Source: an uncultured Blastocatellia bacterium (lineage in GTDB: Bacteria; Acidobacteriota; Blastocatellia; HR10). Taken from it: a stretch of DNA of 64,000 bases. Under the pieces are notes generated by a model. The model saw only the letters and a program-made list of their open reading frames with translations, was not told the origin of the DNA and did no database searches. This document shows positions 1 through 62,487 of the stretch, in pieces. The stretch's first letter is position 1; each line of letters begins with the position of its first letter. The translations under genes and the position numbers were made by a program. Where the stretch lies: contig CALHAI010000005.1 in NCBI GenBank assembly GCA_937934295.1, positions 119,272 to 183,271 on the forward strand. The letters run 5' to 3'.

Positions 1-503
1 GGATTCTCGTAGCTGATGAGCTGAGGATCCGTCCGGCCTAACCGTCCATCCGCCCCCGGATATCGAATGTTCCAGGCGAACTGCTCGGCTGTGACTTCCA
101 CGAGCACGGCATCCGGAGGAGCCGGATGAAGGTAATACTTCTGCCAGATCGGAAGTCCGATCACAAGCACTCCGCCCTCGGCCACCAACGCCATGACGAT
201 CCCCGGAATGAGCGACCACAACTTCTCGGCCCGCGCGCTCGCCAGCCGATAGGTGATCCGCTCCTGCCGGCTGAACCGCCAGATGAAATACCCCAAGACC
301 ACGTGCCCGAGGATAAAAAGCGCACCCACCGTGATGAGCAGATAGTGAATCATCCGATCGATGCCGGCTCCATGCTCGGAGGCAAGCGGCGGCAGCCACC
401 GCCGCACGCCCAGTCCGATTCCCACAACGGCAATAGTGATGAGAACGAAGGCGAAGAAAAATCCCTCCAGGATTCGCTTGCGTCGCTCGTTTCCCTCATG
501 CAT
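1..503 (-). CDS. coxB: cytochrome c oxidase subunit II (N-terminal part; gene runs off window start)
   Basis: Reverse-strand translation from the ATG at 503 gives MHEGNERRKRILEGFFFAFVLITIAVVGIGLG... with two TM helices followed by ...VTAEQFAWNIRYPGADGRLG..., the typical start of the COX2 cupredoxin domain. No stop codon before position 1. Not in the ORF track because it is truncated. Confidence 0.7.
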   Translation of the reverse strand, partial: MHEGNERRKRILEGFFFAFVLITIAVVGIGLGVRRWLPPLASEHGAGIDRMIHYLLITVGALFILGHVVLGYFIWRFSRQERITYRLASARAEKLWSLIPGIVMALVAEGGVLVIGLPIWQKYYLHPAPPDAVLVEVTAEQFAWNIRYPGADGRLGRTDPQLISYEN

Positions 504-591
504 GGCGCCTTCCCTCATGCTCTTGACTTGAACCGATTCGCGATCGGTTCACCGCTGTCGGGCGAAATCTACCCCGCCTCCGGCAGCGAAA

Positions 592-611
592 GCTGTGACT
601 GAAGTCACAGC
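592..611. promoter_or_regulatory. perfect CRP/FNR-family type palindrome TGTGA-N6-TCACA (GCTGTGACT-GA-AGTCACAGC)
   Basis: Read directly: 9-bp perfect inverted arms with a 2-nt spacer. TGTGA is at 594-598 and TCACA at 605-609. It lies ~90 bp upstream of the coxB start (minus strand) in a divergent intergenic region. Confidence 0.5.
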
Positions 612-820
612 AATGCCCTCTCAGATGACATCCTCATCTGCTCGAAAATCTTTCGCACTTGCACCACACAACTGAGTGGGGCCTTCGCGACCTCACCCAT
701 GGCTTGTGCCTTAGCAAACAGCATTCCGCAACAGGAATGGGCGAGGCTCCACGGATCGAAAAGCTTCGAGAGAACAAGTACTTCGTTCGTGCGCGCGAAT
801 CTCCCGAAGACCTTCGCTGA

Positions 821-1017
821 CCCCCGATGTTGGGGGATAAGCCCCCCCATCGGGTAAAATCCCCCAACATGATTGGGTGAAATCCCTCCCATCATCGCTG
901 CAAGAAGAGGCGCCGAAGAGACAAGCGCTCGGCCCCTACCGCCTCAGCGACCTCAAATCGTCCCCGGAGCTTCTTCGGAGCCCTGAGCGAGAAGGCCCGC
1001 TATGGGTGTAATCCCCC
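821..1017. repeat. array of short G-run/AT-loop/C-run hairpin motifs (GGG-TRWAAT-CCCCC type), 4-5 copies
   Basis: CCCCC-GATGTT-GGGGG (821-836), GGGGG-ATAAG-CCCCCCC (832-848), GGG-TAAAAT-CCCCC (852-865), GGG-TGAAAT-CCCTCCC (875-890), GGG-TGTAAT-CCCCC (1004-1017). All lie in the divergent intergenic region between coxB and the multiheme operon. Confidence 0.45.
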
Positions 1018-1134
1018 ACCCGGTTCGGTTATACTTGTCTCGGTCAACCCGATCATTCTGCGAGTGATAGTCATGTTCGAGCGCGATGCTTGAGGACGGC
1101 ACGCGGCTTGCATATGCAATGCGAGTTGATTTCG

Positions 1135-3255
1135 ATGAGGAACAGAACGGGGCATGTGATCGGACCTCGTCGGCGCGAATGCGCGCGCGGTTCCTTCATT
1201 CTCATTCTCCTCGTGCTCGGCCTGCCGGCATCCGCGCAGACGGCCCGCCGCGCACCGACTCCGCGACTCAGCTCGGCCGAGTGCCTGGCTTGTCACACTG
1301 ATCCCAATCTGAGTAAGGTGGTGAACGGCCAGACCGTGAGCGTTCACGTCAGCGAGAGCGCGTTCAAGGCATCGGTGCATAGCGCCTTCGACTGCACGGA
1401 TTGTCACGCGGATGTTCGGGACTATCCGCATGAGCCGCCGCCACAGAAGGGCTCCTGCGCCACGTGCCATCCGGACGCCGAAACGGCCTATGCGCGGAGC
1501 TTGCACAGGAAGGCGGTACACGAAGGACGCGCACGGGGGGCAAGCTGCGCTGACTGCCACGGTAACGTGCATACGATCTTGCCCTCGAGCGATCCCCGCT
1601 CGAAGACGCATCGCGCGCACATCCCGCAGACGTGTGGCGCCTGCCACGGGGTACAATTCGTCGTCGAGCCGGCCGGTATCCGCGCCCAGCCATTCTTCTC
1701 CTATCAGCAGAGCGTGCACGGGCGAGCGGTCACCGCCGGCTCAACGCGTGCGGCCATTTGCACCGACTGCCACCATAGCCACGACGTGCGTTCGGCGGCC
1801 GATCCGCAATCGCCCATCTTCAAATTCAATGTGCCGGCGACCTGCGGACAGTGCCATGCGAGCATCCGCGATGAATTCTTGGAGAGCATCCACGGCCAGG
1901 CGATTCGCCGGGGGAACTGGCAAGCGCCCGTATGCACGGATTGTCATGGCATTCACCTGATCAAGCCGCACATCGATCCGACCTCTCCGGTCGCGCAACA
2001 AGCGCTCGCGCGCACGACCTGTGGGCGGTGTCATGAAGGCGTTCGCCTGACGCAGGAATTCGGCGTGCCGGGCGGACGGGTGAGCACGTACCTGGACAGC
2101 TATCATGGACGCGCCTCGCGGCTCGGCTCGACGGTCGTTGCCAACTGCGCCAGTTGTCACGGCGTTCACAACATCCTCCCCTCCTCCGATCCGCGCTCGA
2201 TGGTGCACAAGGCGAATCTCGCCCGCACCTGCGGGCAGTGCCATCCGGGCGCCAGCGAGAATTTCGCGCGTGTGAAGGTTCACGCCGAAGTTCCGGTCTC
2301 TGAAGACATCGGGAGCATCCTCAAGCATTGGGTGCGACGCATCTACCTCTGGCTCATCGCCATCACCATCGGCTTGATGGTGCTGCACAACGGCGCGATC
2401 TGGCGAAAGAAAGCCCTGGCTCGGCGCGCGCTCGAAGATCGTTCGATCCTTCGCCTGACGTCGCAACAACGGTGGCAACACCTGCTCCTTCTGGTGAGCT
2501 TCTTCACGCTCGTGCTCACGGGCTTTGCTTTGAAATATCCGGACTCTTGGCTGGCGTGGCTGCTTGGCGCTCACGAGGCCTCCCGTCGAATCGCCCACCG
2601 GGTGGCCGGCGTCTTGCTGCTCGGCATCGGGGCCTATCACCTCGTCTACATCATAGCGACGTCCGAAGGCCGGCAGGTCTGGCGCGACATGCGCCCGCAG
2701 CGGAAAGACCTCGCCGATCTCCTTCAGAACATGCGCTACTATTTTGGTCAAAGCGCTCATCGCCCGTCGTTCGGGCGATGCAGCTATATTGAGAAATTCG
2801 AGTATTGGGCGCTCGTCTGGGGGACGATCATCATGGGCGCGACGGGGCTGATCGTGTGGTTCAAGGCACAGACGACACGGTGGCTTCCGGGATGGGTCGT
2901 GGACGTCGCTCTCGCGATTCACTTCTACGAGGCCGTGCTGGCGACGCTCGCCATCTTCGTCTGGCATTTCTACCATGTCATCTTCGATCCGGATGTTTAT
3001 CCGATGAACTGGGCGTGGCTCGACGGGCGCGTCTCGGCCCTATGGTATCAGCATGAGCATCCGCTAGATTACGCGCGCCTTGTTGGGGCCGGCCCAGCGG
3101 AACCCGCCACAGCCGTTCCCCCCGATGCCGCCTCCAAAGGCACGACGGTCGCGGCGCATCCGCTCACGCCTTCCAAAGATCCCGTGGAGGCCTCGACAGG
3201 TGCCCCTGGGAATCCGCGCGCAGACGCCGACATTTCGGGAGAGGAAGTCAGATGA
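1135..3255 (+). CDS. multiheme cytochrome c (11 CxxCH, repeated dihaem modules) fused to a C-terminal HydC/FdnI-type dihaem cytochrome b membrane domain (CbcL-like architecture)
   Basis: Signal-peptide-like N-terminus (FILILLVLGLPASAQ). Eleven CxxCH motifs are arranged in repeating ~50-aa units (SxHG..C..CHG.H.ILPSSDPRS....TCGxCH). The C-terminal ~250 aa carry 4-5 TM helices with paired His residues (HRVAGVLLLGIGAYHLV, HFYEAVLATLAIFVWHFYHV). The track ORF starts at TTG 1090. ATG 1135 (or 1114) is more likely the start, but this is uncertain. Confidence 0.85.
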   Translation: MRNRTGHVIGPRRRECARGSFILILLVLGLPASAQTARRAPTPRLSSAECLACHTDPNLSKVVNGQTVSVHVSESAFKASVHSAFDCTDCHADVRDYPHEPPPQKGSCATCHPDAETAYARSLHRKAVHEGRARGASCADCHGNVHTILPSSDPRSKTHRAHIPQTCGACHGVQFVVEPAGIRAQPFFSYQQSVHGRAVTAGSTRAAICTDCHHSHDVRSAADPQSPIFKFNVPATCGQCHASIRDEFLESIHGQAIRRGNWQAPVCTDCHGIHLIKPHIDPTSPVAQQALARTTCGRCHEGVRLTQEFGVPGGRVSTYLDSYHGRASRLGSTVVANCASCHGVHNILPSSDPRSMVHKANLARTCGQCHPGASENFARVKVHAEVPVSEDIGSILKHWVRRIYLWLIAITIGLMVLHNGAIWRKKALARRALEDRSILRLTSQQRWQHLLLLVSFFTLVLTGFALKYPDSWLAWLLGAHEASRRIAHRVAGVLLLGIGAYHLVYIIATSEGRQVWRDMRPQRKDLADLLQNMRYYFGQSAHRPSFGRCSYIEKFEYWALVWGTIIMGATGLIVWFKAQTTRWLPGWVVDVALAIHFYEAVLATLAIFVWHFYHVIFDPDVYPMNWAWLDGRVSALWYQHEHPLDYARLVGAGPAEPATAVPPDAASKGTTVAAHPLTPSKDPVEASTGAPGNPRADADISGEEVR

Positions 3256-4727
3256 CCAAACGCTTGCATCTGTGGTTCTGGGACTTGATGCGCTTGGTGG
3301 GCCGAAACTGGATCACGGCCCTCGGGGGAACCCTCACGACCATCAGCGCCTTGCTCATCATCGCATTCATGATCCTCGGCTTGCTCGGCCTCTACGACAC
3401 GCCATATATCGGGATCATGGCGTTCCTCGCCCTGCCGGGGGTCTTCATCTTCGGGCTCCTGCTCATCCCCTTGGGCTTGTACTGGGAGCGAAAGCAGGCG
3501 CTGCGGCGCAACGCTTCGGCGAATCCGATGTCTCGCAAGCCATATCCGCACATTGATTTCAATCGTGCATCGGTACGCCGCACGGCCGGGATCGTGAGCG
3601 TCCTCACGCTCATCAATCTCCTCATCATCTCCCTGACGACGTACAAAGGCGTGACCTACATGGATTCGGTCGAGTTCTGCGGCACCGTGTGCCATGCCGT
3701 CATGGAGCCGGAATACACGGCCTATCTCAACTCGCCGCATTCGCGCGTGAAATGCGTCGAATGCCATATTGGTCCCGGAGCCCCCTGGTTCGTCCGCTCG
3801 AAACTCTCGGGCGTGGGACAGGTCTTCGCGACGGCGTTCAACACGTACTCGCGCCCGATTCCGACGCCGGTCGAAAACCTACGCCCCTCGCGCGATACGT
3901 GCGAGCAGTGTCATTGGCCGGAGAAATTCACCGGAGACCGCGTCAAGATCATCACCCGCTTCGCCGAAGATGAAGCGAATACGCCTCTCAAGACCGTCCT
4001 CCTCATGCACATCGGAGGTGGCGCGGCCGGTCACGGGGGCATCCACAGTTGGCACATCGCTCCGAACCGACAAACGATCTACATCGCCGCGGACAAGCAG
4101 CGGCAGATCATCCCGTGGATTCAGGTGCGCGAGGCCGATGGACGCGTCACGGAATTCATCACTCAGGACGCGCACATGGTGCCCGAGCAGCTCGCCCGCG
4201 CCGAGCGCCGCGTCATGGATTGTATTGACTGTCACAATCGTCCGACGCACATCTTCAAACTTCCGGATCAAGCGATGGATGAAGCGCTGGCGACTGGTCG
4301 CCTTGACCGTACATTGCCGTACATCAAGAAGCTTGGCGTCGAAGTCCTGCGCGCGGCCGCGGACACACCGGGGAACGCTGCCGAAGAGATCGCTCGGCGC
4401 GTCCGCGCGTTCTATGAGGAGAAGTATCCTGATCTCTTCCGCTCCCGCCGCGAGGCGATCGAAACAGCGATCCGCGAGCTGCAGGCCATCCTTCGTCGGA
4501 ACGTCTTCCCCTCGATGAGGGTGACGTGGGGGACGTATCCCGATAACATCGGGCATACGCGTTTCCCGGGCTGCTTCCGCTGTCATGATGAGCAGCATGT
4601 GAGCAAGGATGGACGGACGATCAGCCAAAGCTGCGACCTCTGTCACACGCTCCTGGCGGTCGAAGAGCCAAATCCGCCGATCCTGCAGCAGCTCAATATC
4701 CGGGAGAACGTCAACGGCACGAGGTGA
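3252..4727 (+). CDS. membrane-anchored multiheme cytochrome c (3 N-terminal TM helices; 5 CxxCH + 1 CX3CH), ImcH / NapC-NirT-like
   Basis: ATGA overlap with the upstream gene. Three hydrophobic helices in the first 130 aa. Haem motifs are CGTVCH (CX3CH), CVECH, CEQCH, CIDCH, CFRCH and CDLCH. Confidence 0.8.
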   Translation: MTKRLHLWFWDLMRLVGRNWITALGGTLTTISALLIIAFMILGLLGLYDTPYIGIMAFLALPGVFIFGLLLIPLGLYWERKQALRRNASANPMSRKPYPHIDFNRASVRRTAGIVSVLTLINLLIISLTTYKGVTYMDSVEFCGTVCHAVMEPEYTAYLNSPHSRVKCVECHIGPGAPWFVRSKLSGVGQVFATAFNTYSRPIPTPVENLRPSRDTCEQCHWPEKFTGDRVKIITRFAEDEANTPLKTVLLMHIGGGAAGHGGIHSWHIAPNRQTIYIAADKQRQIIPWIQVREADGRVTEFITQDAHMVPEQLARAERRVMDCIDCHNRPTHIFKLPDQAMDEALATGRLDRTLPYIKKLGVEVLRAAADTPGNAAEEIARRVRAFYEEKYPDLFRSRREAIETAIRELQAILRRNVFPSMRVTWGTYPDNIGHTRFPGCFRCHDEQHVSKDGRTISQSCDLCHTLLAVEEPNPPILQQLNIRENVNGTR

Positions 4728-4730
4728 ACA

Positions 4731-5762
4731 ATGACTTCGCCAACTTACACCCTTCTGCGCATGATTCGGGACCTCGGATGCGTCCGCGCCCGACCGAGCG
4801 GTCTCGCCATGCTGATCCTCGGGATCACGCTCGGCCTCCTCCTCGGCACCGAACGAACGGTTCGACCGAAGCCGAAGACGATGCCCGCAGGGATGACCCG
4901 CATCGGCACGCTGGGGGAGTCGCGCCCCTCTTCCCAGCAACCGGAGAATCCCTACGTCGGCTCCGAAACGTGCAAGATGTGCCATGAGGACCTCTACACG
5001 CACTTTGCTCGAACGGCACACTTTTTGACCCTCAGCAGTCCGAAGTACACGGAGTCGGAGAAGGGCTGCGAAGCCTGTCACGGACCGGGTCGGGAACATG
5101 TGGAGAGCGGCGGCGACGTGACGAAGATCTTCCCGTTTCGCGGACGCTCCGTCTCTGAGCAGAATGCGCGCTGCCTCACCTGCCACGAGCGGCAGGAGGA
5201 GCGCCATAATTTCCGCCAATCCGGGCACGGCCTGAACCGGGTCGCCTGCACCGATTGTCACTCCTCGCACTCGCCGGTTCTCCTCGAAGACCTCCTGGCG
5301 AAGCGCCTGCCCGAGCTGTGCTATGAGTGTCACGGCGAGATCCGTCAGGACTTCACCAAGCCCTTCCGTCATCGCGTCCACGAAGGGGGGATGAGTTGTA
5401 CGACCTGTCACAATCCCCACGGAGGGTTCAACGTGGCCCAAACGCGCGACGTCTTGGGTGGAACCGATGCCGTGTGTCTGAAATGTCATACGGATAAACA
5501 GGGACCGTTCGTCTTCGAACACGCGCCGGTGAAGCTCGAAGGCTGTGCGATCTGTCATGCTCCGCATGGCTCGAATAACCCACGACTCCTCACGCGCCCA
5601 TATGTGTACCAGCTCTGTCTCGAATGCCACACGGCTACGCCAGGAATTCTGGGATCGGAACCGCCCGCCTTTCACGACATTCGGCAACCGCGTTTTCAAA
5701 ACTGCACGACGTGCCATGTGAAGGTCCACGGCTCGAACGTCAACCGCCTCTTCTTTCAGTAG
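4731..5762 (+). CDS. periplasmic decaheme cytochrome c, MtrA/DmsE/PioA/MtoA family-like
   Basis: Ten CxxCH motifs in 343 aa (CKMCH, CEACH, CLTCH, CTDCH, CYECH, CTTCH, CLKCH, CAICH, CLECH, CTTCH). N-terminal signal/anchor. Starts 4 nt after the upstream stop. Confidence 0.85.
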   Translation: MTSPTYTLLRMIRDLGCVRARPSGLAMLILGITLGLLLGTERTVRPKPKTMPAGMTRIGTLGESRPSSQQPENPYVGSETCKMCHEDLYTHFARTAHFLTLSSPKYTESEKGCEACHGPGREHVESGGDVTKIFPFRGRSVSEQNARCLTCHERQEERHNFRQSGHGLNRVACTDCHSSHSPVLLEDLLAKRLPELCYECHGEIRQDFTKPFRHRVHEGGMSCTTCHNPHGGFNVAQTRDVLGGTDAVCLKCHTDKQGPFVFEHAPVKLEGCAICHAPHGSNNPRLLTRPYVYQLCLECHTATPGILGSEPPAFHDIRQPRFQNCTTCHVKVHGSNVNRLFFQ

Positions 5763-5771
5763 GAGGGGGAT

Positions 5772-7838
5772 ATGCCGGCTCTCATCCGTCAAGTCAGCTC
5801 TCACACCACGCCTTTGGCATCTCGATTCATATCTTCTGCGAGAATGTGGTTCAGTCTCGCCGTGCTCGTCGGCCTCTTCGGGCTGACCGCTCTTGAACCG
5901 CGCGCCCAGGAGAGCACCGCGCAACCGACGCAGGAGGGCCTTCGCTTGGGAAGAATGATCGCGCAGAGCGAGCTGGAATTCGGCTGGCGCCAGCTCTTTG
6001 TGGGGGGGAATCGCAATCTCTATCGCAGCCAGATCAATCTGGATGAGGGGCTGCGCCTGCTCGGCCTCTCCTTCACCTCTCGGTATCCGGAGAACACGGG
6101 ATCGCTCTTCGACCTCCTCACCTATAGCATGGCGAGCTGGGGCGGCGATCCGTATAACACGGTGAGCCTGCGCGTGGAGAAACGTGGCTCCTATCGCTTC
6201 GACTTCGGCTACAGCCGAATCGTGTACTACAACTTCCTGCCGACCTTCGCGAATCCGCTGCGCGAGCGCGGGGAGGAGCTCGGCCAACATAGCATGGACG
6301 CTGCGCGCCGCCGATCGGAATACCGCCTGACGCTCTTTCCCGATGCCGATTTCCGCATTCACCTCGCTTACGAGCGCACTGCGCAATTCGGATCCGCCTT
6401 CACCACGTTCCCGATCGGCTTGGATGAATTCGTGCTCCTGGATCCGCCGCGCACGACGACGGACGATTACCGCGTGGGCGTGGACGTTCGGCTCGGGCGC
6501 TTGCACCTGACGGTGGAGCAGGGCGTTCGCGCATTCAAAAACGACATCCATACGAATCAGCCCGAAGGGACGATCAACCTGGGAAACAATCGGAATCCGG
6601 CCAATCCGACCTCGGCCAATCCCCAGCAAATTTTTCTGCAGACGTTCGCGCGCGATAGTGGGATTCGCGGTCTGGTGCCGACGACGCGCCTCGGGCTGCA
6701 CGGACGCGTGCACCGCACGGTGCTGTTGAGTGGGCGCTTCGCCTACAGCGACGCCCGCATAGACTTCACGCGCCAAGAGGAAGCGACCGGCAACCTCTTC
6801 GATCTCTCCGTCCTCCGATATGTCACGACGCAAACGTCAACGAGCCTCGCCCACGCCTCGCGGCCCAATGCCCTCGCCGACGCGAGCGTGAACTATCACC
6901 CGCATCGGCGCCTCACCTTCACCAACACCGTACGATTCCAGCATTTCACGGTCGCCGGAGATGTGCGCACGCGCACCGAGCAGAAGCTCAGTGCGGACCT
7001 GCGCGGCCCCCTCCCGTCGCCCCAAACGCGCTTGGTCACAGAATGGCTCGGCGCGCGCACGTCCGTGGATTCGTTCTTCAACTACGTCGAGAGTGCTGTG
7101 GAACTCACTCCGCGCGTGGTCCTTCGCGCCGGTCATCGCTTCGCTCATCGGCGGGCCTCGCTCCACCGACCTGAGGCGGGCGAACGCGAGGAATCGGAGT
7201 TGAACGCGCACGCCGTCCTTGGCGGCCTCAGCTTTCGCGCGACTCCGACCCTTCGCCTCTTCGCCCAGATCGAACGAGGCTCCAGCGACAACGTCTTCAC
7301 CCGCGTGGCTCCGCGTCGCTTCACGCGACTCCGCACTCGCGCCCAATACCGACCGACTACTTCGCTCACGCTCGGTCTGCAGCTCCTTGTAACCGACGCG
7401 CGCAATCCAAATCCACTCGTGGACGACATGCGCCGAAATCGCGGCCTGACGCTCATGACTCTGTGGACCCCTGATGAACGCTTCGCCCTTTCGCTCAGCT
7501 ATACGCGCACGGACATCACGTCGGCGATCCTTGTTCTCCATCCGCGCCTGCGAACAATCGAGTCCTCACAATATGTGGCGAAGGACAATTTCGTGGACGG
7601 CGATCTCATCATCTCCCCGCTTCGCAACCTCCGGCTCGCCCTCGGCTACTCTGTGGTCAACGCGCAGGGGACGTTCCCCCTCAACTTCCATCAGCCGCGG
7701 GGGATGATCGCCTACACGTTCCCGAAGCGCTTCACCTGGAGCATCGGCTGGCGCTGGTACGGGTACAACCAAAAGGGATTCGCCCTAGAAGACTATCGCG
7801 CCCATACGCTGACCGGCAGCCTGAAGATCGCATTTTGA
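5772..7838 (+). CDS. outer-membrane beta-barrel porin, MtrB/PioB-like partner of the decaheme
   Basis: AGGAGG 5 nt upstream of the ATG. N-terminal signal region. 688 aa with alternating hydrophobic/polar segments rich in Y/W/G/R (RFDFGYSRIVYY, FTWSIGWRWYGY). The C-terminus ...GSLKIAF ends in an aromatic residue, typical of an OM beta-barrel signal. It sits immediately downstream of an MtrA-type decaheme. Confidence 0.7.
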   Translation: MPALIRQVSSHTTPLASRFISSARMWFSLAVLVGLFGLTALEPRAQESTAQPTQEGLRLGRMIAQSELEFGWRQLFVGGNRNLYRSQINLDEGLRLLGLSFTSRYPENTGSLFDLLTYSMASWGGDPYNTVSLRVEKRGSYRFDFGYSRIVYYNFLPTFANPLRERGEELGQHSMDAARRRSEYRLTLFPDADFRIHLAYERTAQFGSAFTTFPIGLDEFVLLDPPRTTTDDYRVGVDVRLGRLHLTVEQGVRAFKNDIHTNQPEGTINLGNNRNPANPTSANPQQIFLQTFARDSGIRGLVPTTRLGLHGRVHRTVLLSGRFAYSDARIDFTRQEEATGNLFDLSVLRYVTTQTSTSLAHASRPNALADASVNYHPHRRLTFTNTVRFQHFTVAGDVRTRTEQKLSADLRGPLPSPQTRLVTEWLGARTSVDSFFNYVESAVELTPRVVLRAGHRFAHRRASLHRPEAGEREESELNAHAVLGGLSFRATPTLRLFAQIERGSSDNVFTRVAPRRFTRLRTRAQYRPTTSLTLGLQLLVTDARNPNPLVDDMRRNRGLTLMTLWTPDERFALSLSYTRTDITSAILVLHPRLRTIESSQYVAKDNFVDGDLIISPLRNLRLALGYSVVNAQGTFPLNFHQPRGMIAYTFPKRFTWSIGWRWYGYNQKGFALEDYRAHTLTGSLKIAF

Positions 7839-7842
7839 AGCG

Positions 7843-7859
7843 CCGTCGAAGCGACGGCG
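7843..7859 (+). terminator. stem-loop GCCGTCG-AAG-CGACGGC just after the porin stop (no clear U-tract)
   Basis: Perfect 7-bp stem, 3-nt loop, 5 nt downstream of the TGA at 7836-7838. Confidence 0.35.
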
Positions 7860-8080
7860 ACCGCTCTCGCGCTCAGGCGCACGGGGACCGACCGAGGGGG
7901 ACCCGCTTCATCTGGCGAGGCGGATGAGGGTGAAACGCCAGATGGCCCCCTCTCGCACACTCACTTGGACTTCGACGCTCTCAAGGCGACGAAGCCATCA
8001 GCAGCAGGAAACAGGTCCGGGCGAGCTTTCCGCACGGGAATGGGTCTCACGCTCCGGAGAACACCTGCGCCTGAAGGACG

Positions 8081-9310
8081 TTATTTCTTCCCCTCCTTCG
8101 GCTCGACGTAGCTACGCCGGTGCTGGACTTCCAGGCGATCGTTATCGGGCTTGCCGTCGCCATCCACATCCACGAGAACCTGAATGCGGCGTCGTTTCCC
8201 CTCGCGACGAGGGTTCGTCGGCGTATAACCGAGCGTGTATTGCGTGCGCAGCATGACGGAGATGGATTCGAGCACCGAAGGCAAGGCACCCTGAAACCGG
8301 ACGCTGTAGAAGCGACCGCCGGTGACCTCGGCGAACGTCTTCAACGTGTTCTGCGCTTGCAAAAAGGTGAGACGCGATTCCGGCGGCAGCCGATGCTCGA
8401 GCAGAAGGTATGCCAACTCGCCAATGCCGATGGCATAGATGGGAACGCCCGCGTTCTCCACGATCTTGCGCGCCTCGTCGTAATTGATCTTGCTGAAGGT
8501 ATCGATCCCAATAGCGACGAGCAGAATGGCCGTGCGCCCCTCGATCTCCTCCAAGCCCGTATATTCGGCACCGTCCAGCTCTCCCCCCCGCAAGACGAAG
8601 TTCAAAGCATCGAAGAGATTGCTCTCGCTGAAAGCCGGATAGTTCCGAATGAGCACGTAGATGGCCTCGCGCAAGCGCGCCGGGCTATCGGTGAAATCCG
8701 TCAAGACAGCTGGTCGAATGTCGAAGGCGACGATGGCGATGTAATCGCCCGGTTTCACAAAGCGCGTCACAAAGAGCCCGGCCGGATTGATCACCTCCTC
8801 GCGGAACCATTCGATCTGCCGACTGTATTCGAGGAGCATCACGAGCGTGAGGGGCGACTCCTCGCCATTGAACGTCACGATCTCCTGTTTCACGCTGTCT
8901 TCCAGGACGGTGAAATTCTCCTTCCTCAATCCGGTGTATACGCGTCCCGTCTTCTTGTCGAAGACGACGACCGGTACGGTGACCAGATCGGCCTTAAGGC
9001 GAATGGGTTCGCCCTCGACCTGAACCGCTTTCTCCCGTCGAGTCGGAGGCTTCGGCTCCTGACCGGATGGCGCTGTCGAAGCCGCGGGCTTTTGTTCCTC
9101 GCCAGCAGGCTTCTCCGATGGAGGGGCTTGAGGCCGTTCGCGTCGCGGAGGGCGTCGGCCCGCTTGTTCACCCAACAGGGTTCCGCCTCCGGAAGGAGTG
9201 AAGAGGATGCCAACTAAGAACCCCACCAGGACGATCAGCGAGAGAAGTGACGTCCCACGCGATCCTCGGCTTCCCAGGGACGGTGTCGCGCTTCGTCGTA
9301 AGCTCATCAT
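8081..9310 (-). CDS. von Willebrand factor type A (VWA) domain protein, Acidobacterial-type VWFA-related
   Basis: GGAGG before the ATGATG start at 9310/9307. N-terminal TM/signal (LLSLIVLVGFLVGILF), a Pro/Lys/Glu-rich linker, then a VWA-like fold. The track ORF extends further upstream only because no in-frame stop occurs. Confidence 0.7.
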   Translation of the reverse strand: MMSLRRSATPSLGSRGSRGTSLLSLIVLVGFLVGILFTPSGGGTLLGEQAGRRPPRRERPQAPPSEKPAGEEQKPAASTAPSGQEPKPPTRREKAVQVEGEPIRLKADLVTVPVVVFDKKTGRVYTGLRKENFTVLEDSVKQEIVTFNGEESPLTLVMLLEYSRQIEWFREEVINPAGLFVTRFVKPGDYIAIVAFDIRPAVLTDFTDSPARLREAIYVLIRNYPAFSESNLFDALNFVLRGGELDGAEYTGLEEIEGRTAILLVAIGIDTFSKINYDEARKIVENAGVPIYAIGIGELAYLLLEHRLPPESRLTFLQAQNTLKTFAEVTGGRFYSVRFQGALPSVLESISVMLRTQYTLGYTPTNPRREGKRRRIQVLVDVDGDGKPDNDRLEVQHRRSYVEPKEGKK

Positions 9311-9452
9311 GGGTTCCTCCGCCGCCATAATGCTACCACCCCCGCATGGGTGCGGCAAGCAGCGAGGGCATGCTTGACTTCCAAATCCGCTCCATGCCAC
9401 TATCGGGTGCTTCGGACACGCGCGAGGTTGCCTGAGGGGGGATGCGAAGGCC

Positions 9453-10733
9453 ATGAAGGTGTTCGTCATCGGATCGGGGGGACGCGAGCATGCGATCGCA
9501 TGGACGCTGGCTCGAAGCGCGAGTGTCAGAGAGATCGTCGCGGCGCCGGGGAATGGGGGCCTGGCCGAGATCGCTCGCTGCGTGCACGCCGATGTCGGCG
9601 ATCCGGGCGAGCTGGCAGATGTAGCCGAGGCCGAAGGCGTTGCTTTGACATTCGTCGGCCCGGAGTTGCCATTGGTCCTTGGTGTCGCGGATGAGTTCTC
9701 CCGGCGTGGGCTCAAGATCATCGGCCCGGATGCGCGTGCGGCTCGCCTGGAAGGGAGCAAGGCCTTCGCCAAGGAATTCATGGCGCGGCACGGTATTCCG
9801 ACGGCGCGGTTCACGATCTGCGACTCCGCGGCCGAAGCTCGCCGCGCGATCGCTTCTCGGCGGTTCGACTTCCCCGTGGTGATCAAAGCGGACGGACTAG
9901 CCGCCGGGAAAGGCGTAAGTCTCGCGCATACGCATGAAGAGGCCGAGGCCACGATTGAGCGGCTCATGGTCGAGAGGGCGCTTGGAGCGGCGGGCGAGCG
10001 CGTCGTTCTGGAAGAATGCTTGATCGGGCGCGAATGCAGTTTCCTGCTCGTCACCGATGGGGAATTCGTCGTGCCATTGCCTCCGGCGCAAGATTACAAG
10101 CGCGCGTATGATGGCGATCAGGGGCCGAACACCGGCGGCATGGGGGCGATCTCCACGCCGCATCTTCTCGATGAGACCACCCATGAGCGCATCCTGAGGG
10201 AGATCGCTTGGCCGACGGTCCGCGCGGCGGCTCAAGAAGGCTTCCCCTATCGGGGGGTCCTCTACATCGGCCTTATGCTCACACCGAAAGGCCCGCACGT
10301 GCTCGAATACAACGTCCGCTTGGGCGACCCGGAAGCGCAAGCGATCCTACCGCGATTGGAGAGCGATCTGCTGGAGATCGGCGAAGCGCTCTTGGCTGGC
10401 GAACTCTCCCGCGTTCGCCTTCGATGGCGTGAGGATTCGACGGTCTGTCTGGTCCTGGCATCAGGCGGATACCCGGGGACCTACCAGACCGGCCACCCCA
10501 TCCGAGGCTTGGGGGAGGTGCGACGTCTTCCAGAGGTCATGGTCTTCCACGCCGGGACAACGCGCGCGCCCGATGGATCGTTCCTCACAGCCGGCGGTCG
10601 CGTCCTCAACATCGTCGCGCGCGGTCGCACCCTCGCGGAAGCGCGCCAGCGCGCTTACGCAGCCGCTTCGCTCATCACCTTCGAGCAGATGCACTACCGG
10701 CGCGATATCGGCGCGGAATGGACGCCGACGTGA
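9453..10733 (+). CDS. purD: phosphoribosylamine--glycine ligase
   Basis: MKVFVIGSGGREHAIAWTLARS... with ATP-grasp motifs. Full-length 426 aa. Confidence 0.9.
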   Translation: MKVFVIGSGGREHAIAWTLARSASVREIVAAPGNGGLAEIARCVHADVGDPGELADVAEAEGVALTFVGPELPLVLGVADEFSRRGLKIIGPDARAARLEGSKAFAKEFMARHGIPTARFTICDSAAEARRAIASRRFDFPVVIKADGLAAGKGVSLAHTHEEAEATIERLMVERALGAAGERVVLEECLIGRECSFLLVTDGEFVVPLPPAQDYKRAYDGDQGPNTGGMGAISTPHLLDETTHERILREIAWPTVRAAAQEGFPYRGVLYIGLMLTPKGPHVLEYNVRLGDPEAQAILPRLESDLLEIGEALLAGELSRVRLRWREDSTVCLVLASGGYPGTYQTGHPIRGLGEVRRLPEVMVFHAGTTRAPDGSFLTAGGRVLNIVARGRTLAEARQRAYAAASLITFEQMHYRRDIGAEWTPT

Positions 10734-28925: not shown

Positions 28926-29927
28926 TCAATCGTATCGGAGCGAGAAATGATTGTATCCGCGCGGGGCGAGCGGTTCCCGATGTCCGGCATGCTCCAGGTA
29001 CACCTGACCGGGATCTGAGATCGTGCGCCCGATGCAGGTCAGTGGGAGATCGGGGAATCGCATACGTGCTTCCTCAAGACACGGCGTGTGTTCTTCCCTC
29101 ACGGTGAAGAGCAGCTCGTAATCCTCTCCTCCATGCAGGGCGAGCGTCAAGGGATCAGCGCCCAATGCGCTCGCTTCCGCGACCACCGGGAGCGCCTCGG
29201 CGCGGAGCACAGCCCCCACGTGACTCTCCTCGCACAGACGGCGGAGGTCGGAAGAAAGACCATCGCTCAGATCGATCATCGCGCGAGCCACGCCTTCCTC
29301 AGCCAGATACTGAGCGAGCGAGAGCCGCGGCTCCGGCGCCAGATGCGCCAGGATCGGACGGCGCAGATGTTCCGGCAGCTCGTCGCTCAACCGATACCCG
29401 GCATCCAGAAGCCGCAATCCCAGGGCCGAGAGCCCGAGTTGCCCGGTGACGTAGATCGCCTCTCCGGGCATGGCACCATCGCGGCGCACGGCCCGATGCG
29501 CGGCGCACTCGCCGATGAGGGTCACGTGCACACTGAGCCCTAGGGGCGACGCCGCGAGATTCCCACCAATGAGGATCACAGCGTATCGGTCGGCTGTCGC
29601 CACGATCCCCTCCAGAAGGCCCTCCAGATACGCGTCCTCGAGGTCCCCGGGGACGGCGAGGGAGAGCACGAAGAACCGAGGCCGTCCCCCCATCGCGGCG
29701 ATGTCGCTCAGATTCACGACGAGCGCCTTGTGGCCGAGCAGCCGCGCCGGCGTGTACTCACGGCGAAAGTGAACGCCTTCGATGAGGGCGTCCGTCGTCA
29801 CCAACCACCACTTCCCTGGAGAACGCTTGAGGATCGCCGCATCATCGCCAATCCCCATGACGATCTCGGGAGCGAAGCGGCGCGCCATCTCCCGAATCCG
29901 GCGGACCCATTGGAGTTCACTCCTCAT
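28926..29927 (-). CDS. thiL: thiamine-monophosphate kinase
   Basis: GIGDDAAILKRSPGKWWLVTTDALIEGVHF... has the AIR-synthase-related fold typical of ThiL. Confidence 0.85.
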   Translation of the reverse strand: MRSELQWVRRIREMARRFAPEIVMGIGDDAAILKRSPGKWWLVTTDALIEGVHFRREYTPARLLGHKALVVNLSDIAAMGGRPRFFVLSLAVPGDLEDAYLEGLLEGIVATADRYAVILIGGNLAASPLGLSVHVTLIGECAAHRAVRRDGAMPGEAIYVTGQLGLSALGLRLLDAGYRLSDELPEHLRRPILAHLAPEPRLSLAQYLAEEGVARAMIDLSDGLSSDLRRLCEESHVGAVLRAEALPVVAEASALGADPLTLALHGGEDYELLFTVREEHTPCLEEARMRFPDLPLTCIGRTISDPGQVYLEHAGHREPLAPRGYNHFSLRYD

Positions 29928-31323
29928 GCGACGCTCCTACGGAACGGCCTCCGCGCAGGGCGGATTCCAGCGGGATCTGGTACTTTTGAAGCTTGCGATA
30001 GAGCGTGCGCCGATCAATACCGAGGATCTCCGCAGCCTTCGCATGATTCCCTCCCGTCTCCTCAAGGACGCGCAAGATGTGCCGCTTCTCCACCTCCGCG
30101 AGGGTGCGGGGCTCGCGCTCCGGAGGCGCCGACCGTTCCATGGGGGCGATCCCGCTCAGGTGCGGGGGAAGATCACGAATCGTGAGGACGGGCTCGCTGC
30201 TCATGGTGAGCGCGTATTCGACGGCGTTTTGCAGCTCGCGCACATTTCCCGGCCACGAATAACTCATCAGCAGCCGCATGGCTTCGGTGGAGAATCGCCG
30301 CACCGGCTGCCCGTTCTCAAGGGCGTAGCGCGTCAAGAAATGCTCGACCAAAAGCGGGATGTCCTCGCGCCGCTCGCGCAGCTCGGGCAGATAGAGCGTG
30401 ACGACGTTGAGCCGATAGTAGAGGTCCTCGCGAAACTCGCCGCGACGTACGGCCTCCTCCAGGTCCCGATTCGTCGCCGCGATGATGCGCACGTCCACGG
30501 GGATGTTCTCTCGCCCCCCCACGCGGCGGATGACCTTCTCCTGCAGCGCGCGCAAGAGCTTCACTTGCAGGTCGGGCTTGAGCGCGTCCACCTCATCGAG
30601 AAAGAGCGTGCCTCCATGCGCGACCTCGAACAACCCGGGCCTTGACTCGGTCGCCCCGGTGAACGCCCCGCGCACGTGGCCGAAGAGTTCGCTCTCCAGC
30701 AGTTCCGTCGGCAACGCCCCACAGTTGATGTCCACAAACGGCCCATTCGCTCGAGGGCTGTTGTAGTGAATGGCGCGAGCGACCAACTCCTTCCCCGTCC
30801 CCGTGCGCCCGACAATCAAGACGGTCGCCGATGAGCGCGCCACGCGCTCCAAGATGCGGAACAACTCCTGCATCGGTTTGCTCTTGCCGATGATGTTGCC
30901 GAAGCGATAGCGCTCGGTGAGCTGCTGTTGAAGATCGGCCACGCGTGCTTGCAGCCGCCGTCGTTCCAAGGCGCGCTCAATCCGCATCTTCACATCATCC
31001 AGTTGCAGCGGCTTACTCAGATAATCATCCGCCCCCAGGCGCACGGCCTCCACGGCCGAATCGATCGAGCTGAAGGCCGTCATCATGAGGATGATCGTCT
31101 GCGGGAAAGCCCGTTTGATTTCTTGAAGGACCTCGATGCCGGAACGGTCCGGGAGCCGAATATCGCTCAGGACGATGTCGAAGACGCGCGCGAACATCTT
31201 CTGGAGGGCTATCCCAGCCTCGGTCGCCGTCTCGACCTCAAACCCCTGCCGTCGCAAAAAGCGGGCGAGCACCTCCGCCAGTTGCCCATCGTCCTCGATG
31301 ATGAGCACGCTCAATCGCTCCAT
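29917..31323 (-). CDS. sigma-54-dependent response regulator (NtrC family: receiver + AAA+ with GAFTGA + HTH)
   Basis: Receiver domain begins MERLSVLIIEDD. Walker A GRTGTGKE, GAFTGA, C-terminal Fis-type HTH. The track ORF is extended 28 codons upstream. Confidence 0.85.
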   Translation of the reverse strand: MERLSVLIIEDDGQLAEVLARFLRRQGFEVETATEAGIALQKMFARVFDIVLSDIRLPDRSGIEVLQEIKRAFPQTIILMMTAFSSIDSAVEAVRLGADDYLSKPLQLDDVKMRIERALERRRLQARVADLQQQLTERYRFGNIIGKSKPMQELFRILERVARSSATVLIVGRTGTGKELVARAIHYNSPRANGPFVDINCGALPTELLESELFGHVRGAFTGATESRPGLFEVAHGGTLFLDEVDALKPDLQVKLLRALQEKVIRRVGGRENIPVDVRIIAATNRDLEEAVRRGEFREDLYYRLNVVTLYLPELRERREDIPLLVEHFLTRYALENGQPVRRFSTEAMRLLMSYSWPGNVRELQNAVEYALTMSSEPVLTIRDLPPHLSGIAPMERSAPPEREPRTLAEVEKRHILRVLEETGGNHAKAAEILGIDRRTLYRKLQKYQIPLESALRGGRSVGASHEE

Positions 31324-31458
31324 ACCCCCATCTGGAAAGTGTGCGCACATCGCGCGCGCGAGCGCAAGGTGCGCGCTTCCACCGCCTGTTCCGAACGCTC
31401 CCGACACCGTTCGCGTTGGTTGGGACGCCCTTCGAGCGAGGATATCCTCCAGAGAGGC

Positions 31459-48464: not shown

Positions 48465-49264
48465 GCGCTCTGATCACAGAGATGAAGGAGACAGCCCTCG
48501 GCTCCAGGCCCTCACCGCTTCGCGCCTGGCCTCATCGGGATGAAACGGTCCTCCGAGCCTCGGGATTGACGAAATACTATCGAGGGCGCTGCGTGCTTCG
48601 GGATGTCTCGCTGGAAGTGCATCCGGGGGAGATCGTCGGTTTACTTGGACCCAATGGAGCGGGAAAGACGACGACCTTTCGCCTTCTCGTTGGGATTGAG
48701 ATGCCCGATCGCGGCGCCGTGTTCTTGGATGGCTGCGAGATCACGGGCTTGCCGATGTATCTTCGCGCGCGGCGAGGACTGGTGTATCTCCCGCAGGAGC
48801 CTTCGATCTTCCGCCGTCTGACGGTGGAGGAGAACATCCTCGCCGTTCTGGAACGGCGGAAACTCAGCCGCGCGGAGCGGGAGCGCCGACTGGAGGGGGT
48901 GATGGAAGATCTCGGCCTGACGTCGGTGCGTCACGTCAAAGGCTATGCCCTCTCGGGCGGAGAACGGCGACGGGCGGAGATCGCGCGCGCTCTGGTCATG
49001 GAGCCGCGATTTCTGCTCTTGGATGAGCCCCTGACGGGGATCGATCCGCTCGCCGTGGCTGATCTGCAGCGGATCATCGTGCATTTGAAAGAGCGGGGCA
49101 TCGGGATCCTGATCACGGATCACAACGTGCGGGAGATGCTGCGAATCACGGATCGCGCGTACCTCCTCAGCGAGGGAGGCATCTTTCGCGCCGGCACACC
49201 GGAAGCGTTGACCGAGGATCCGGAGGTCCGGCGCGTCTATTTGGGGGAACACTTCCGGCTGTGA
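48461..49264 (+). CDS. lptB: LPS export ABC transporter ATP-binding protein
   Basis: [43 protein letters not shown]. Conserved position before rpoN. Confidence 0.9.
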
Positions 49265-51246: not shown

Positions 51247-51253
51247 ACATGCG

Positions 51254-59301: not shown

Positions 59302-59411
59302 GGCTTTCGCCTTACTTTATTAGCAAGTGGCGTGCCAAGACAAGCATTCTTGATTCTCCCAGAGTTAGCGCGCCGATGGCGCGGCCACCTGCTGAAAAAC
59401 GCAACAGGTCC

Positions 59412-59493: not shown

Positions 59494-59631
59494 AGTTCGT
59501 GCCGAAGGACACTCCCATCGGCCAGGTGCGGGTGCACATCCCCCTGATGATCAACGACTTCCCGAGCATTGGGAGAAGAATGCGGTACGGCACTCCGATT
59601 GCATATATCTTCGGCTGAGGGAGGACATCCG

Positions 59632-61359: not shown

Positions 61360-61640
61360 GGAGGGCGGTCAAAGGCGCGGCTTCTGGCATTGGCGGCGGA
61401 GCGCGCGCCGACCGCTCCCTTTGTGTCCGAAATCAGTCACTGGCGGGCTCTGGTCCGTTGCACCTAGGAAGCGGCTCTCGATGGGGGATTTGCCCCACCT
61501 CAGCTTCTCGACAGCAGGAGCGATGCCATCGTGGTGCTGTAAGTGCTTGAAGTTAAGCCTTTCGGAAGCGGGCCTGCGAAAGGCACGAGGAGCTGGCCTG
61601 TGGCATGGAAATTGCATCCCTACGAAAAGGGGGGGCGCGT

Positions 61641-62447: not shown

Positions 62448-62487
62448 TCCCCCGCGCGTCGGGCGCGCGGGAGAGGTGGGGACGAAT

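What the first reader, a model, noticed from the sequence alone, without database searches (positions are those of the whole stretch)
1090..7838. Complete inner-membrane-to-outer-membrane multiheme electron conduit in a single operon (CbcL-like + ImcH-like + MtrA-type decaheme + MtrB-like porin)
Seen: four co-directional genes that are translationally coupled (ATGA overlap at 3252, 4-nt gap at 4731, AGGAGG before 5772). Product 1 has 11 CxxCH in repeated dihaem modules fused to a His-paired 4-5 TM cytochrome b domain. Product 2 has three TM helices plus six haem motifs. Product 3 has ten CxxCH in ~340 aa. Product 4 is a 688-aa protein with a beta-barrel-type C-terminus (...LKIAF). Established: in Geobacter, the quinol-oxidising CbcL (c-haem/b-haem fusion) and ImcH (membrane heptahaem) are encoded at separate loci from the porin-cytochrome conduits; in Shewanella, CymA is separate from mtrCAB. 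Inference: here the quinol-oxidase-type modules and an MtrAB/PioAB-type conduit are fused into one transcription unit, and no outer-surface MtrC/OmcB-like cytochrome is adjacent. This points to a compact extracellular electron transfer pathway (metal reduction or Fe(II) oxidation; direction cannot be told from sequence) in a non-model high-GC lineage. It sits next to an oxidase gene with a CRP-type site, which hints at redox-responsive regulation.
Basis: partly seen in the sequence, partly recalled or inferred. Interest (0 to 1): 0.75.

Follow-up and report, generated by a model that had tools for sequence, protein, structure and literature searches.

The report
Acidobacterial CbcL-ImcH-MtrAB electron conduit operon
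A hot-spring acidobacterium packs two quinone-linked inner-membrane multihaem cytochromes, a ten-haem cytochrome and its outer-membrane barrel into one four-gene operon; this is a compact new arrangement of a known kind of cross-envelope electron wire, not a new kind of system.

Summary

The host is a thermophilic Blastocatellia lineage. The four-gene order recurs in three relatives. More distant Acidobacteriota link the same families in other arrangements, with a genuine MtrC gene before mtrA. MtrC is absent here.

The novelty claim is overstated. CbcL-type (MtoC/MtrH) and CymA genes are already known inside mtoAB/mtrAB clusters, and Mtr-like clusters in Acidobacteriota were described in 2026. 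What looks new is imcH next to mtrAB, which a 2018 survey did not find.

The operon probably has its own sigma-54 promoter. The CRP-type site lies nearer the divergent aa3 oxidase operon. The direction of electron flow is unresolved.

Verdict: new variant of a known kind, moderate interest.

The parts
1..518 (-). 5' part of cytochrome c oxidase subunit II (cut by the window edge), transcribed divergently from the operon
   Evidence: The translation matches COX2_TM. The start codon is at 518. In the syntenic locus L002 the full operon is COX2-COX1-COX3-COX3-COX4, and COX2 carries the CuA motif CAELCGFGHFQM.
592..611 (.). Perfect palindrome GCTGTGAC-TGAA-GTCACAGC holding a CRP/FNR-type TGTGA-N6-TCACA core (594-609). 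It also fits TGT-N10-ACA.
   Evidence: It is the only match in the window (0.03 expected). It is conserved at the same relative position in L002, L003 and L005, and is seen as inverted repeat I13. It lies about 83 bp upstream of the oxidase ATG.
827..1018 (.). Repeated motif GGGT(A/G)(A/T)AATCCC(C/T)C at 852-866, 875-889 and 1004-1018, with an inverted copy at 831-845. There is also a 12-nt perfect inverted repeat at 827-838/859-870. These are candidate regulator (enhancer-binding protein) sites.
   Evidence: Repeat families D1, I3 and I4. The core columns are invariant in the four-genome alignment A2. The function is inferred, not tested.
1098..1112 (+). Candidate sigma-54 promoter (-24 GGCAC / -12 TTGCA)
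   Evidence: There are 3 matches in the window against 0.21 expected. The match is exact in L002 and has one mismatch each in L003 and L005. rpoN itself is in the window at 49268-50734.
1135..3255 (+). Product 1, CbcL/MtoC/MtrH-type inner-membrane cytochrome: signal peptide, 11 CXXCH periplasmic domain, one linker TM helix and a four-helix FdnI-type dihaem cytochrome b. The ORF is open from TTG 1090.
   Evidence: Pfam Ni_hydr_CYTB 46.1 bits (cut-off 30.1), Cytochrome_C7 and Paired_CXXCH_1. FdnI alignment matches all four His ligands (H464, H503, H611, H626 in 1090 numbering). Internal duplication is shown.
3252..4727 (+). Product 2, ImcH-type inner-membrane cytochrome: 3 TM helices, an NrfH/NapC-like quinol module with CX3CH, and 5 further CXXCH
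   Evidence: Pfam Cytochrom_NNT 36.9 bits (cut-off 24.1). Spacing is within 1 residue of GSU3259 (Table S3 of PMC6295460). All six motifs and Met151 are invariant in 36 homologues. Residues 121-221 align with NrfH 2J7A_C.
4731..5762 (+). Product 3, MtrA/DmsE-family periplasmic decahaem cytochrome
   Evidence: TIGR03508 253 bits (cut-off 192). 10 CXXCH. Full-length alignment to chain A of the Mtr complex 6R2Q, E 7.6e-35.
5772..7838 (+). Product 4, MtrB-like outer-membrane beta-barrel sheath (688 aa, no Cys, C-terminal ...LKIAF)
7841..7859 (+). GC-rich hairpin (8 bp stem, 3 nt loop) 3 nt after the stop codon; possible terminator without a U-tract
   Evidence: Fold. It is not stronger than shuffled sequence (z -0.76), so this is weak evidence. 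The next gene is convergent (8081 onward, minus strand).

Best explanation
The region is one operon, probably sigma-54-dependent, of a thermophilic Blastocatellia bacterium. It encodes the membrane-bound parts of a multihaem electron path from the menaquinone pool to the cell surface.

Two inner-membrane quinone-interacting cytochromes come first:
- A CbcL-type protein. Its FdnI-like dihaem b domain should place the quinone site near the cytoplasmic face and pass electrons across the membrane to an 11-haem periplasmic chain.
- An ImcH-type protein with an NrfH-like quinol site on the periplasmic face.

They are followed by an MtrA-type decahaem cytochrome, which is threaded through an MtrB-like barrel in the outer membrane.

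No MtrC-type surface cytochrome is encoded here. The outer end of the MtrA homologue would therefore exchange electrons with soluble or small redox partners (chelated Fe(III), humic or quinone-like shuttles, Fe(II)). Alternatively it could use a partner encoded elsewhere.

I consider outward flow (anaerobic respiration of extracellular acceptors) the more likely primary direction, with reversibility possible.

Shown: gene order, family and fold assignments, ligand conservation, synteny. Inferred: complex formation, topology, direction, substrates, regulation.
For: - Gene packing: -4, +3 and +9 nt junctions with Shine-Dalgarno sequences.
- Product 1: Ni_hydr_CYTB above cut-off plus 11 CXXCH; all four FdnI His ligands conserved.
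- Product 2: Cytochrom_NNT above cut-off. TM and haem-motif spacing is 24/49/107/117/20, against 24/49/106/117/20 in G. sulfurreducens ImcH. Geothrix fermentans, an Fe(III)-reducing acidobacterium, has the same six-motif form.
- Product 3: DmsE family above cut-off and E 7.6e-35 to solved MtrA.
- The mtrA-like/barrel pair is adjacent in all 15 loci examined.
- The full four-gene order is conserved in L002, L003 and L005.
- In more distant Acidobacteriota and a Hydrogenedentes contig, the cbcL/imcH pair lies within a few kb of a cluster ordered mtrC-like, mtrA-like, barrel. There the upstream decahaem is a genuine OmcA/MtrC family member (499-580 bits against cut-off 209).
- For outward flow: ImcH has so far been implicated only in quinol oxidation, according to PMC6295460. 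Related Mtr-like clusters of Acidobacteriota are transcribed in anoxic peat (bioRxiv 10.64898/2026.05.27.727921).
Against: - No MtrC-like gene and no small periplasmic cytochrome occur in the operon or anywhere in the 64 kb window. The path is therefore not demonstrably complete.
- An MtrC-less MtrAB pair next to a cytochrome c oxidase is the layout of Fe(II)-oxidising Mto/Pio systems, which argues against outward flow.
- Product 4 misses the Pfam MtrB_PioB cut-off. Its family profile finds no PDB sequence.
- ImcH homologues can stand alone, away from any cytochrome cluster (L015). The inner-membrane modules therefore need not be dedicated to this conduit.
- There are no transcript, protein or physiological data. 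All close relatives are uncultured MAGs.
Confidence: 0.6

Rival explanations
1. The same proteins run mainly inward, as an MtoAB/PioAB-type Fe(II) (or other extracellular donor) oxidation system. The MtrA homologue takes electrons at the cell surface. They then pass downhill to the adjacent CuA-containing aa3 oxidase. They also pass into the menaquinone pool through the CbcL-type protein, whose FdnI-like module natively works in the quinone-reducing, proton-motive direction, and through the ImcH-type protein.
For: - MtrC is absent here and in the three closest syntenic relatives, as in MtoAB and PioAB.
- The operon is divergently paired with an aa3-type cytochrome c oxidase operon. This pairing and the intergenic palindrome are conserved.
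- CbcL homologues (MtoC) sit in mtoAB clusters of Fe(II) oxidisers, and PMC6295460 considers the family most likely able to both oxidise quinol and reduce quinone.
- PioAB homologues have been reported in Acidobacteria (PMC10654088).
Against: - ImcH has so far been linked only to quinol oxidation.
- Related clusters in other Acidobacteriota carry a true MtrC, which is typical of reducers.
- No periplasmic carrier of the MtoD or HiPIP type is encoded.
- No carbon-fixation or other lithotrophy genes were seen in the window. Most of the genome, however, is unseen.
Confidence: 0.25
2. The MtrAB-like pair is a generic trans-outer-membrane wire feeding a surface or extracellular terminal reductase encoded elsewhere, as DmsEF feeds DmsAB. 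Alternatively it serves a non-respiratory role such as detoxifying or reducing soluble metals, iodate or peroxide.
For: The best NCBIfam hit of product 3 is the DmsE family, not an MtrA-specific model. No surface cytochrome is adjacent. MtrCAB and DmsEFAB are reported to act on iodate and H2O2 in Shewanella (abstract of PMC9732548).
Against: There are no molybdoenzyme or other reductase genes next to the operon here or in any of the related loci. Relatives instead carry MtrC.
Confidence: 0.1
3. The two halves are only neighbours. CbcL/ImcH would serve a periplasmic electron hub unrelated to the outer-membrane pair, and the tight packing would reflect genome compaction rather than a shared pathway.
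For: ImcH occurs alone in L015. CbcL and ImcH family hits each saturated the 8000-candidate limit of their searches, whereas the same kind of search with the barrel found only 26 proteins.
Against: Linkage of the two halves recurs in different arrangements and lineages, which is hard to explain without a functional tie. With a profile search the barrel family is also large: 2372 representatives.
Confidence: 0.05

Closest known systems
MtoAB with MtoC (CbcL homologue) or CymA in Fe(II) oxidisers (Dechloromonas aromatica RCB, Gallionella capsiferriformans ES-2, Sideroxydans lithotrophicus ES-1), and the mtrABC-mtrH-cymA cluster of Rhodoferax ferrireducens
   Same: An inner-membrane quinone-interacting cytochrome (a CbcL-type c/b fusion or a NapC/NirT type) is encoded in the same cluster as a decahaem/barrel pair. 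In the Mto systems there is no MtrC (PMC6295460).
   Different: Here both a CbcL-type and an ImcH-type gene are present and translationally coupled. The CbcL-type protein has 11 haem motifs, not 9. There is no MtoD-like carrier. The barrel is too divergent for the Pfam MtrB_PioB cut-off. The host phylum is Acidobacteriota.
Shewanella MtrCAB (structure 6R2Q) with CymA
   Different: There is no MtrC. The barrel has about 14% identity to MtrB, no detectable sequence-profile match to it, and no Cys, so it lacks the N-terminal CXXC known from Shewanella-type MtrB (own knowledge). The inner-membrane partner is not CymA and is encoded in the same operon.
Geobacter sulfurreducens ImcH (GSU3259) and CbcL (GSU0274)
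   Same: - ImcH: three TM helices, a CX3CH next to the membrane and the same inter-motif spacing.
- CbcL: a periplasmic multihaem domain fused to a HydC/FdnI-type dihaem b. The spacing of the last five haem motifs is 30/29/42/28 here, against 29/28/43/28 in CbcL.
   Different: - In Geobacter the two genes are unlinked to each other and to the porin-cytochrome clusters.
- Geobacter ImcH has a 7th haem that is missing here.
- CbcL has 9 haems rather than 11.
- ImcH and CbcL homologues with consecutive protein accession numbers, which suggests adjacent genes, are reported for Desulfuromonas acetexigens (PMC12133095).
Mtr-like porin-cytochrome cluster 'EET2' of Bryobacterales and other porin-multihaem clusters of peat Acidobacteriota (Fiorito et al., bioRxiv 10.64898/2026.05.27.727921)
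   Same: Both are sequence-divergent Mtr-like conduits in Acidobacteriota. A Bryobacteraceae locus (L011) carries a barrel 29% identical to product 4.
   Different: That study describes surface, periplasmic and porin components. In the text searched it mentions neither ImcH or CbcL nor any inner-membrane partner. Identity of EET2 with this family was not tested directly.
Rhodopseudomonas palustris PioAB(C)
   Same: An MtrC-less decahaem plus barrel pair.
   Different: PioC (HiPIP) is the periplasmic carrier there and no quinone-linked cytochrome is in that operon. PioA has a long N-terminal extension (own knowledge) that is absent here.

Membership tests
CbcL/MtoC/MtrH inner-membrane cytochromes | N-terminal periplasmic multihaem c domain (9 CXXCH in G. 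sulfurreducens CbcL) | tested here: met
   11 CXXCH between residues 65 and 381. The spacing of the five membrane-proximal motifs matches GSU0274 within 1 residue. The extra haems come from a tandem duplication.
CbcL/MtoC/MtrH inner-membrane cytochromes | C-terminal HydC/FdnI-type membrane domain with four His ligands for two b haems | tested here: met
   Ni_hydr_CYTB 46.1 bits against cut-off 30.1. The alignment to FdnI 1KQF_C matches His18, His57, His155 and His169.
CbcL/MtoC/MtrH inner-membrane cytochromes | Quinol oxidase or quinone reductase activity feeding extracellular electron transfer | not testable with these tools
   Needs biochemistry or genetics.
ImcH | Three N-terminal transmembrane helices | tested here: met
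   Hydropathy segments lie at about 20-45, 49-79 and 108-132. The AlphaFold2 model has helices 20-45, 51-88 and 106-137. GSU3259 has 13-35, 45-67 and 100-122.
ImcH | Atypical CX3CH next to the third helix, followed by 5-9 CXXCH at conserved spacing | tested here: met
   CGTVCH at 143, then CXXCH at 168, 217, 324, 441 and 461. Spacing is 24/49/107/117/20, against 24/49/106/117/20 in GSU3259. All motifs are invariant in 36 homologues.
ImcH | Seventh, C-terminal haem motif of Geobacter ImcH | tested here: not met
   The protein ends at residue 491, before the expected position. The same six-motif form is listed for Geothrix, Geoalkalibacter and Geopsychrobacter ImcH homologues, so the published family definition (5-9 CXXCH) is still met.
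ImcH | NapC/NirT (NrfH)-like quinol dehydrogenase region | tested here: met
   Cytochrom_NNT 36.9 bits against cut-off 24.1. Residues 121-221 align with NrfH 2J7A_C residues 20-120, with the CX3CH on NrfH haem 1 and a conserved Met.
MtrA/DmsE decahaem cytochromes | About 300-350 aa, ten CXXCH, match to TIGR03508 above cut-off | tested here: met
   343 aa, 10 CXXCH. 253.1 bits against cut-off 192.2. E 7.6e-35 over residues 76-336 to 6R2Q chain A.
MtrB/PioB outer-membrane sheath | Sequence match to Pfam PF11854 at the gathering threshold | tested here: not met
   17.7 bits against 23. 6 of 43 wider family members give weak hits, best E 1e-6. The family profile finds no PDB sequence.
MtrB/PioB outer-membrane sheath | Large (about 26-strand) plug-less barrel of MtrB fold | tested here: met
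MtrB/PioB outer-membrane sheath | Gene immediately downstream of the decahaem gene | tested here: met
   9 nt gap here. The two are adjacent in all 15 related loci.
MtrB/PioB outer-membrane sheath | Physical insertion of the decahaem into the barrel | not testable with these tools
   Only single-chain prediction was available. This needs multimer modelling with haems or biochemistry.
Complete MtrCAB-type conduit | Adjacent OmcA/MtrC-family surface decahaem | tested here: not met
   There is no further multihaem ORF in the 64 kb window. More distant relatives do have one directly upstream of mtrA (TIGR03507 499-580 bits).
Sigma-54-dependent operon | GG-N10-GC promoter at the right distance, rpoN present, cognate enhancer-binding protein | tested here: inconclusive
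   The element at 1098-1112 is enriched and conserved in the close clade. rpoN and one NtrC-type regulator are in the window. The cognate activator and the transcription start are unknown.

The most novel reading that the evidence does not exclude
CbcL-type and ImcH-type cytochromes form a co-translated inner-membrane unit. Its 11-haem periplasmic arm docks directly on the MtrA homologue. This would give a hard-wired, shuttle-free and MtrC-free conduit that can run in both directions between the menaquinone pool, the neighbouring aa3 oxidase and external Fe or humic substrates. This linked module, in varying gene orders, would be a core and so far unrecognised respiratory trait of Acidobacteriota.
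Probability: 0.15. Interest if true: 0.7.

Novelty: new variant of a known kind. Interest (0 to 1): 0.4.

Why it matters
Acidobacteriota are among the most abundant soil and sediment bacteria, yet how they respire without oxygen is poorly known.

This operon and its relatives show that the two inner-membrane cytochrome families that set the redox 'gears' of Geobacter are genetically tied to an Mtr-type outer-membrane wire in this phylum. A 2018 survey did not see that link for ImcH. The 2026 description of acidobacterial Mtr-like clusters does not mention an inner-membrane partner in the text searched.

The window version is the most compact of the arrangements examined here: four genes, one promoter, from a thermophile. 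That makes it a practical cassette for heterologous tests. Such tests could ask whether CbcL and ImcH feed MtrA directly, and in which direction such MtrC-less conduits run.

Tried and rejected
1. A Foldseek search of the AlphaFold2 model of product 2 against the PDB gave no match better than E 0.4. No solved ImcH-like fold was found, and haem-free models of cytochromes compare poorly, so this added nothing.
2. The sequence profile of the barrel family found nothing among PDB sequences. Homology to MtrB therefore rests on fold and gene context.
3. The afdb50 fold library was unavailable.
4. Rfam found nothing in 1-9000, so no riboswitch or known sRNA lies in the long leader region.
5. The promoter/terminator consensus scan found no sigma-70-type promoter, and terminator-like sites were not above chance. 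The hairpin after the stop codon is not stronger than shuffled sequence.
6. I compared the window's NtrC-type regulator with the one near imcH in L017. They are 40% identical, which is ordinary for paralogues and no evidence of a conserved cognate activator.
7. The exact sigma-54 pattern is absent from the more distant loci. That regulation may be specific to the close clade.
8. The look-up of P0104 found no record, and the P0143 contig had no DNA, only a gene table.
9. Shi et al. 2014 (PMC4245776) and Baker et al. 2022 (PMC8805035) do not mention Acidobacteria.
10. I considered that the long antisense ORFs (1741-2976, 3879-6833) might be genes. I rejected this on codon-position GC.

Full report
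**What is in the sequence**

Four co-directional ORFs lie at 1090-3255, 3252-4727, 4731-5762 and 5772-7838. They have the codon-position GC signature of real genes in this 62% GC window; the long antisense ORFs do not.

The junctions are as follows:
- an ATGA overlap at 3252-3255;
- a 3-nt gap (not 4) between the stop at 4725-4727 and the ATG at 4731;
- a 9-nt gap containing AGGAGG before 5772.

Haem motifs are 11 CXXCH in product 1, 5 CXXCH plus one CX3CH in product 2, 10 CXXCH in product 3 and none in product 4, which ends LKIAF. No other multihaem ORF exists in the 64 kb window.

**Product 1**

Pfam gives Ni_hydr_CYTB above its cut-off, together with cytochrome c7, c3 and Paired_CXXCH hits. 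The membrane domain aligns with E. coli FdnI (1KQF_C, E 1.4e-7). FdnI His18, His57, His155 and His169 are all matched by His residues: H464, H503, H611 and H626 when counted from 1090.

Hydropathy shows a signal-peptide-like segment, one linker helix after the last haem motif, and four helices corresponding to FdnI. By analogy with FdnI, the quinone site would lie near the cytoplasmic face. This is inference.

The haem domain contains a tandem duplication of a four-haem unit (36% identity over 142 aa). The five motifs nearest the membrane are spaced 30/29/42/28, against 29/28/43/28 in Geobacter CbcL. It is therefore a CbcL/MtoC/MtrH-type protein with 11 rather than 9 haems.

**Product 2**

Cytochrom_NNT is above its cut-off. 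The three helices, the CX3CH next to the third helix and the five following CXXCH reproduce the layout tabulated for ImcH in PMC6295460. The spacings are 24/49/107/117/20, against 24/49/106/117/20 in GSU3259.

The seventh Geobacter motif is missing. The same is true of the ImcH homologue of the acidobacterium Geothrix fermentans.

Residues 121-221 align with NrfH. The CX3CH falls on NrfH haem 1, and a Met three residues after the His is invariant. The predicted structure found no solved counterpart.

**Products 3 and 4**

Product 3 scores 253 bits on the DmsE-family decahaem model (cut-off 192). It aligns end to end with chain A (MtrA) of the Mtr complex 6R2Q at E 7.6e-35.

Product 4 has no family above threshold: MtrB_PioB gives 17.7 bits against 23. 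An AlphaFold2 model built on 22 homologues is a large barrel with pLDDT 79. Its best structural match is MtrB (6R2Q_B) by two methods:
- Foldseek: TM 0.63/0.66, with the next hit at 0.41;

The protein has no cysteine.

A word-indexed search found only 26 relatives, and those that carry a taxonomic label are Acidobacteriota or Blastocatellia. A full profile search found 2372 cluster representatives, 624 of them below 1e-30. In a sample of 43 of these, MtrB_PioB is the only recurrent, though weak, Pfam hit. Product 4 is best described as a divergent sister of MtrB/PioB.

**Organism and synteny**

The closest relatives are MAGs labelled Blastocatellia or Acidobacteriota, mainly from hot-spring or hot-subsurface sources.
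- The order cbcL-like, imcH-like, mtrA-like, barrel is conserved in L002, L003 and L005.
- The mtrA-like/barrel pair is adjacent in every locus examined.
- In more distant Acidobacteriota (L001, L007, L009, L010, L012, L013, L017) a 570-750 aa decahaem lies directly upstream of mtrA. Three of these were scanned, and all three are clear OmcA/MtrC family members (499-580 bits, cut-off 209).
- In L012, L013, L014, L017, the P0143 contig and a Hydrogenedentes contig (L016), cbcL-like and imcH-like genes lie within a few kb of that cluster. Their orientation varies.
- One ImcH homologue stands alone (L015).

The window therefore shows the most compact form of a recurrent linkage. In this form MtrC is missing, and imcH occupies the place directly before mtrA.

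**Regulation and neighbours**

Upstream and divergent lies cytochrome c oxidase subunit II (start at 518). In L002 the whole operon is COX2-COX1-COX3-COX3-COX4 with a CuA motif, that is, an aa3-type cytochrome c oxidase.

The palindrome TGTGACTGAAGTCACA (594-609) is unique in the window and conserved in the three syntenic genomes. It is about 83 bp from the oxidase start and about 530 bp from the operon.

Immediately before a conserved ATG at 1135 lies GGCACGCGGCTTGCA, a sigma-54-type -24/-12 element. There are 3 such elements in the window against 0.21 expected. It is conserved, with at most one change, in the close clade only. rpoN and an NtrC-type regulator are in the window. Conserved GGGTNNAATCCCCC repeats between 827 and 1018 are candidate activator sites.

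Downstream, a hairpin follows the stop codon, and the next gene is convergent. Rfam finds nothing in the region.

**Comparison with the literature**

PMC6295460 documents the following:
- CbcL homologues (MtoC, MtrH) and CymA occur inside mtoAB/mtrAB clusters.
- ImcH homologues have three helices, a CX3CH and 5-9 CXXCH.
- No mtrAB/mtoAB was found next to imcH.

ImcH and CbcL homologues of Desulfuromonas acetexigens carry consecutive accession numbers (PMC12133095). PioAB homologues have been reported in Acidobacteria (PMC10654088). A 2026 preprint describes an Mtr-like cluster in Bryobacterales without mentioning inner-membrane partners in the text searched.

The kind of system is therefore known. 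The imcH-cbcL-mtrAB operon is a new arrangement.

**Mechanism and verdict**

The most likely reading is a path from the menaquinone pool to the cell surface: two alternative inner-membrane entry points and an MtrAB-type outer-membrane wire, acting on soluble or small redox partners because MtrC is absent.

I favour outward flow (confidence 0.6 for the whole statement). The reasons are the known role of ImcH and the MtrC-bearing relatives. An Mto/Pio-like inward role coupled to the neighbouring oxidase remains a serious rival (0.25).

Complex formation, direction and substrates are all inferred. Nothing here is categorically new. I rate interest as moderate (0.4).

Noticed in passing
window 49268-50734 (+), with 46206-49264 and 50731-52216: rpoN (sigma-54) sits in a cluster with an LptC/LptA-like fusion ORF, an ABC ATPase (lptB-like), a hibernation factor and HPr kinase. 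The LptC-plus-LptD_N/LptA domains appear in one 752-aa ORF.
   Followed up: partly
window 29917-33018 (-): A PAS histidine kinase and an NtrC-type sigma-54 response regulator lie 22 kb from the operon. A similar pair lies 4-7 kb from imcH in L017, but the regulators are only 40% identical, so no conserved link is shown.
   Followed up: partly
window 59322-59336 (-) and 59589-59603 (+): Two further sigma-54-type -24/-12 matches. The first lies just upstream of 58480-59301 (-), a C_GCAxxG_C_C putative redox protein with two CXXCH motifs.
   Followed up: no
window 61605-64000 (+): A Fer4_11 four-cluster protein is followed by an NrfD-type membrane subunit (a Psr- or ACIII-like quinone-interacting module), cut by the window edge.
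   Followed up: no
window 827-1018: Conserved repeats GGGT(A/G)(A/T)AATCCC(C/T)C occur three times plus one inverted copy, with a perfect 12-nt inverted repeat, in the long intergenic region. They may be regulator-binding sites.
   Followed up: partly
window 3933-4163 (product 2 residues about 228-304): The AlphaFold2 model of the ImcH-type protein has a beta-rich, haem-free insertion between haem motifs 3 and 4, modelled with high confidence in parts. Neither it nor the whole model matches any PDB fold.
   Followed up: partly
L005 (CAZTMT010000003.1): The record is titled 'uncultured Clostridia bacterium', yet it carries all four genes at 72-84% identity to the acidobacterial ones, plus the same oxidase operon and palindrome. 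The bin label is probably wrong.
   Followed up: no
L009 10133-12786; L007 5504-8145: Downstream of the mtrCAB-like cluster in these Blastocatellia relatives lie a 9-haem, two-TM cytochrome and a 5-haem protein with weak similarity to Geobacter ExtKL. Both are absent from the window.
   Followed up: no
window 8081-9400 (-): The convergent downstream gene encodes a secreted or anchored protein with no Pfam match at E 1e-5. The listed 657-aa ORF overlaps purD (9453-10733) and is probably shorter in reality.
   Followed up: no
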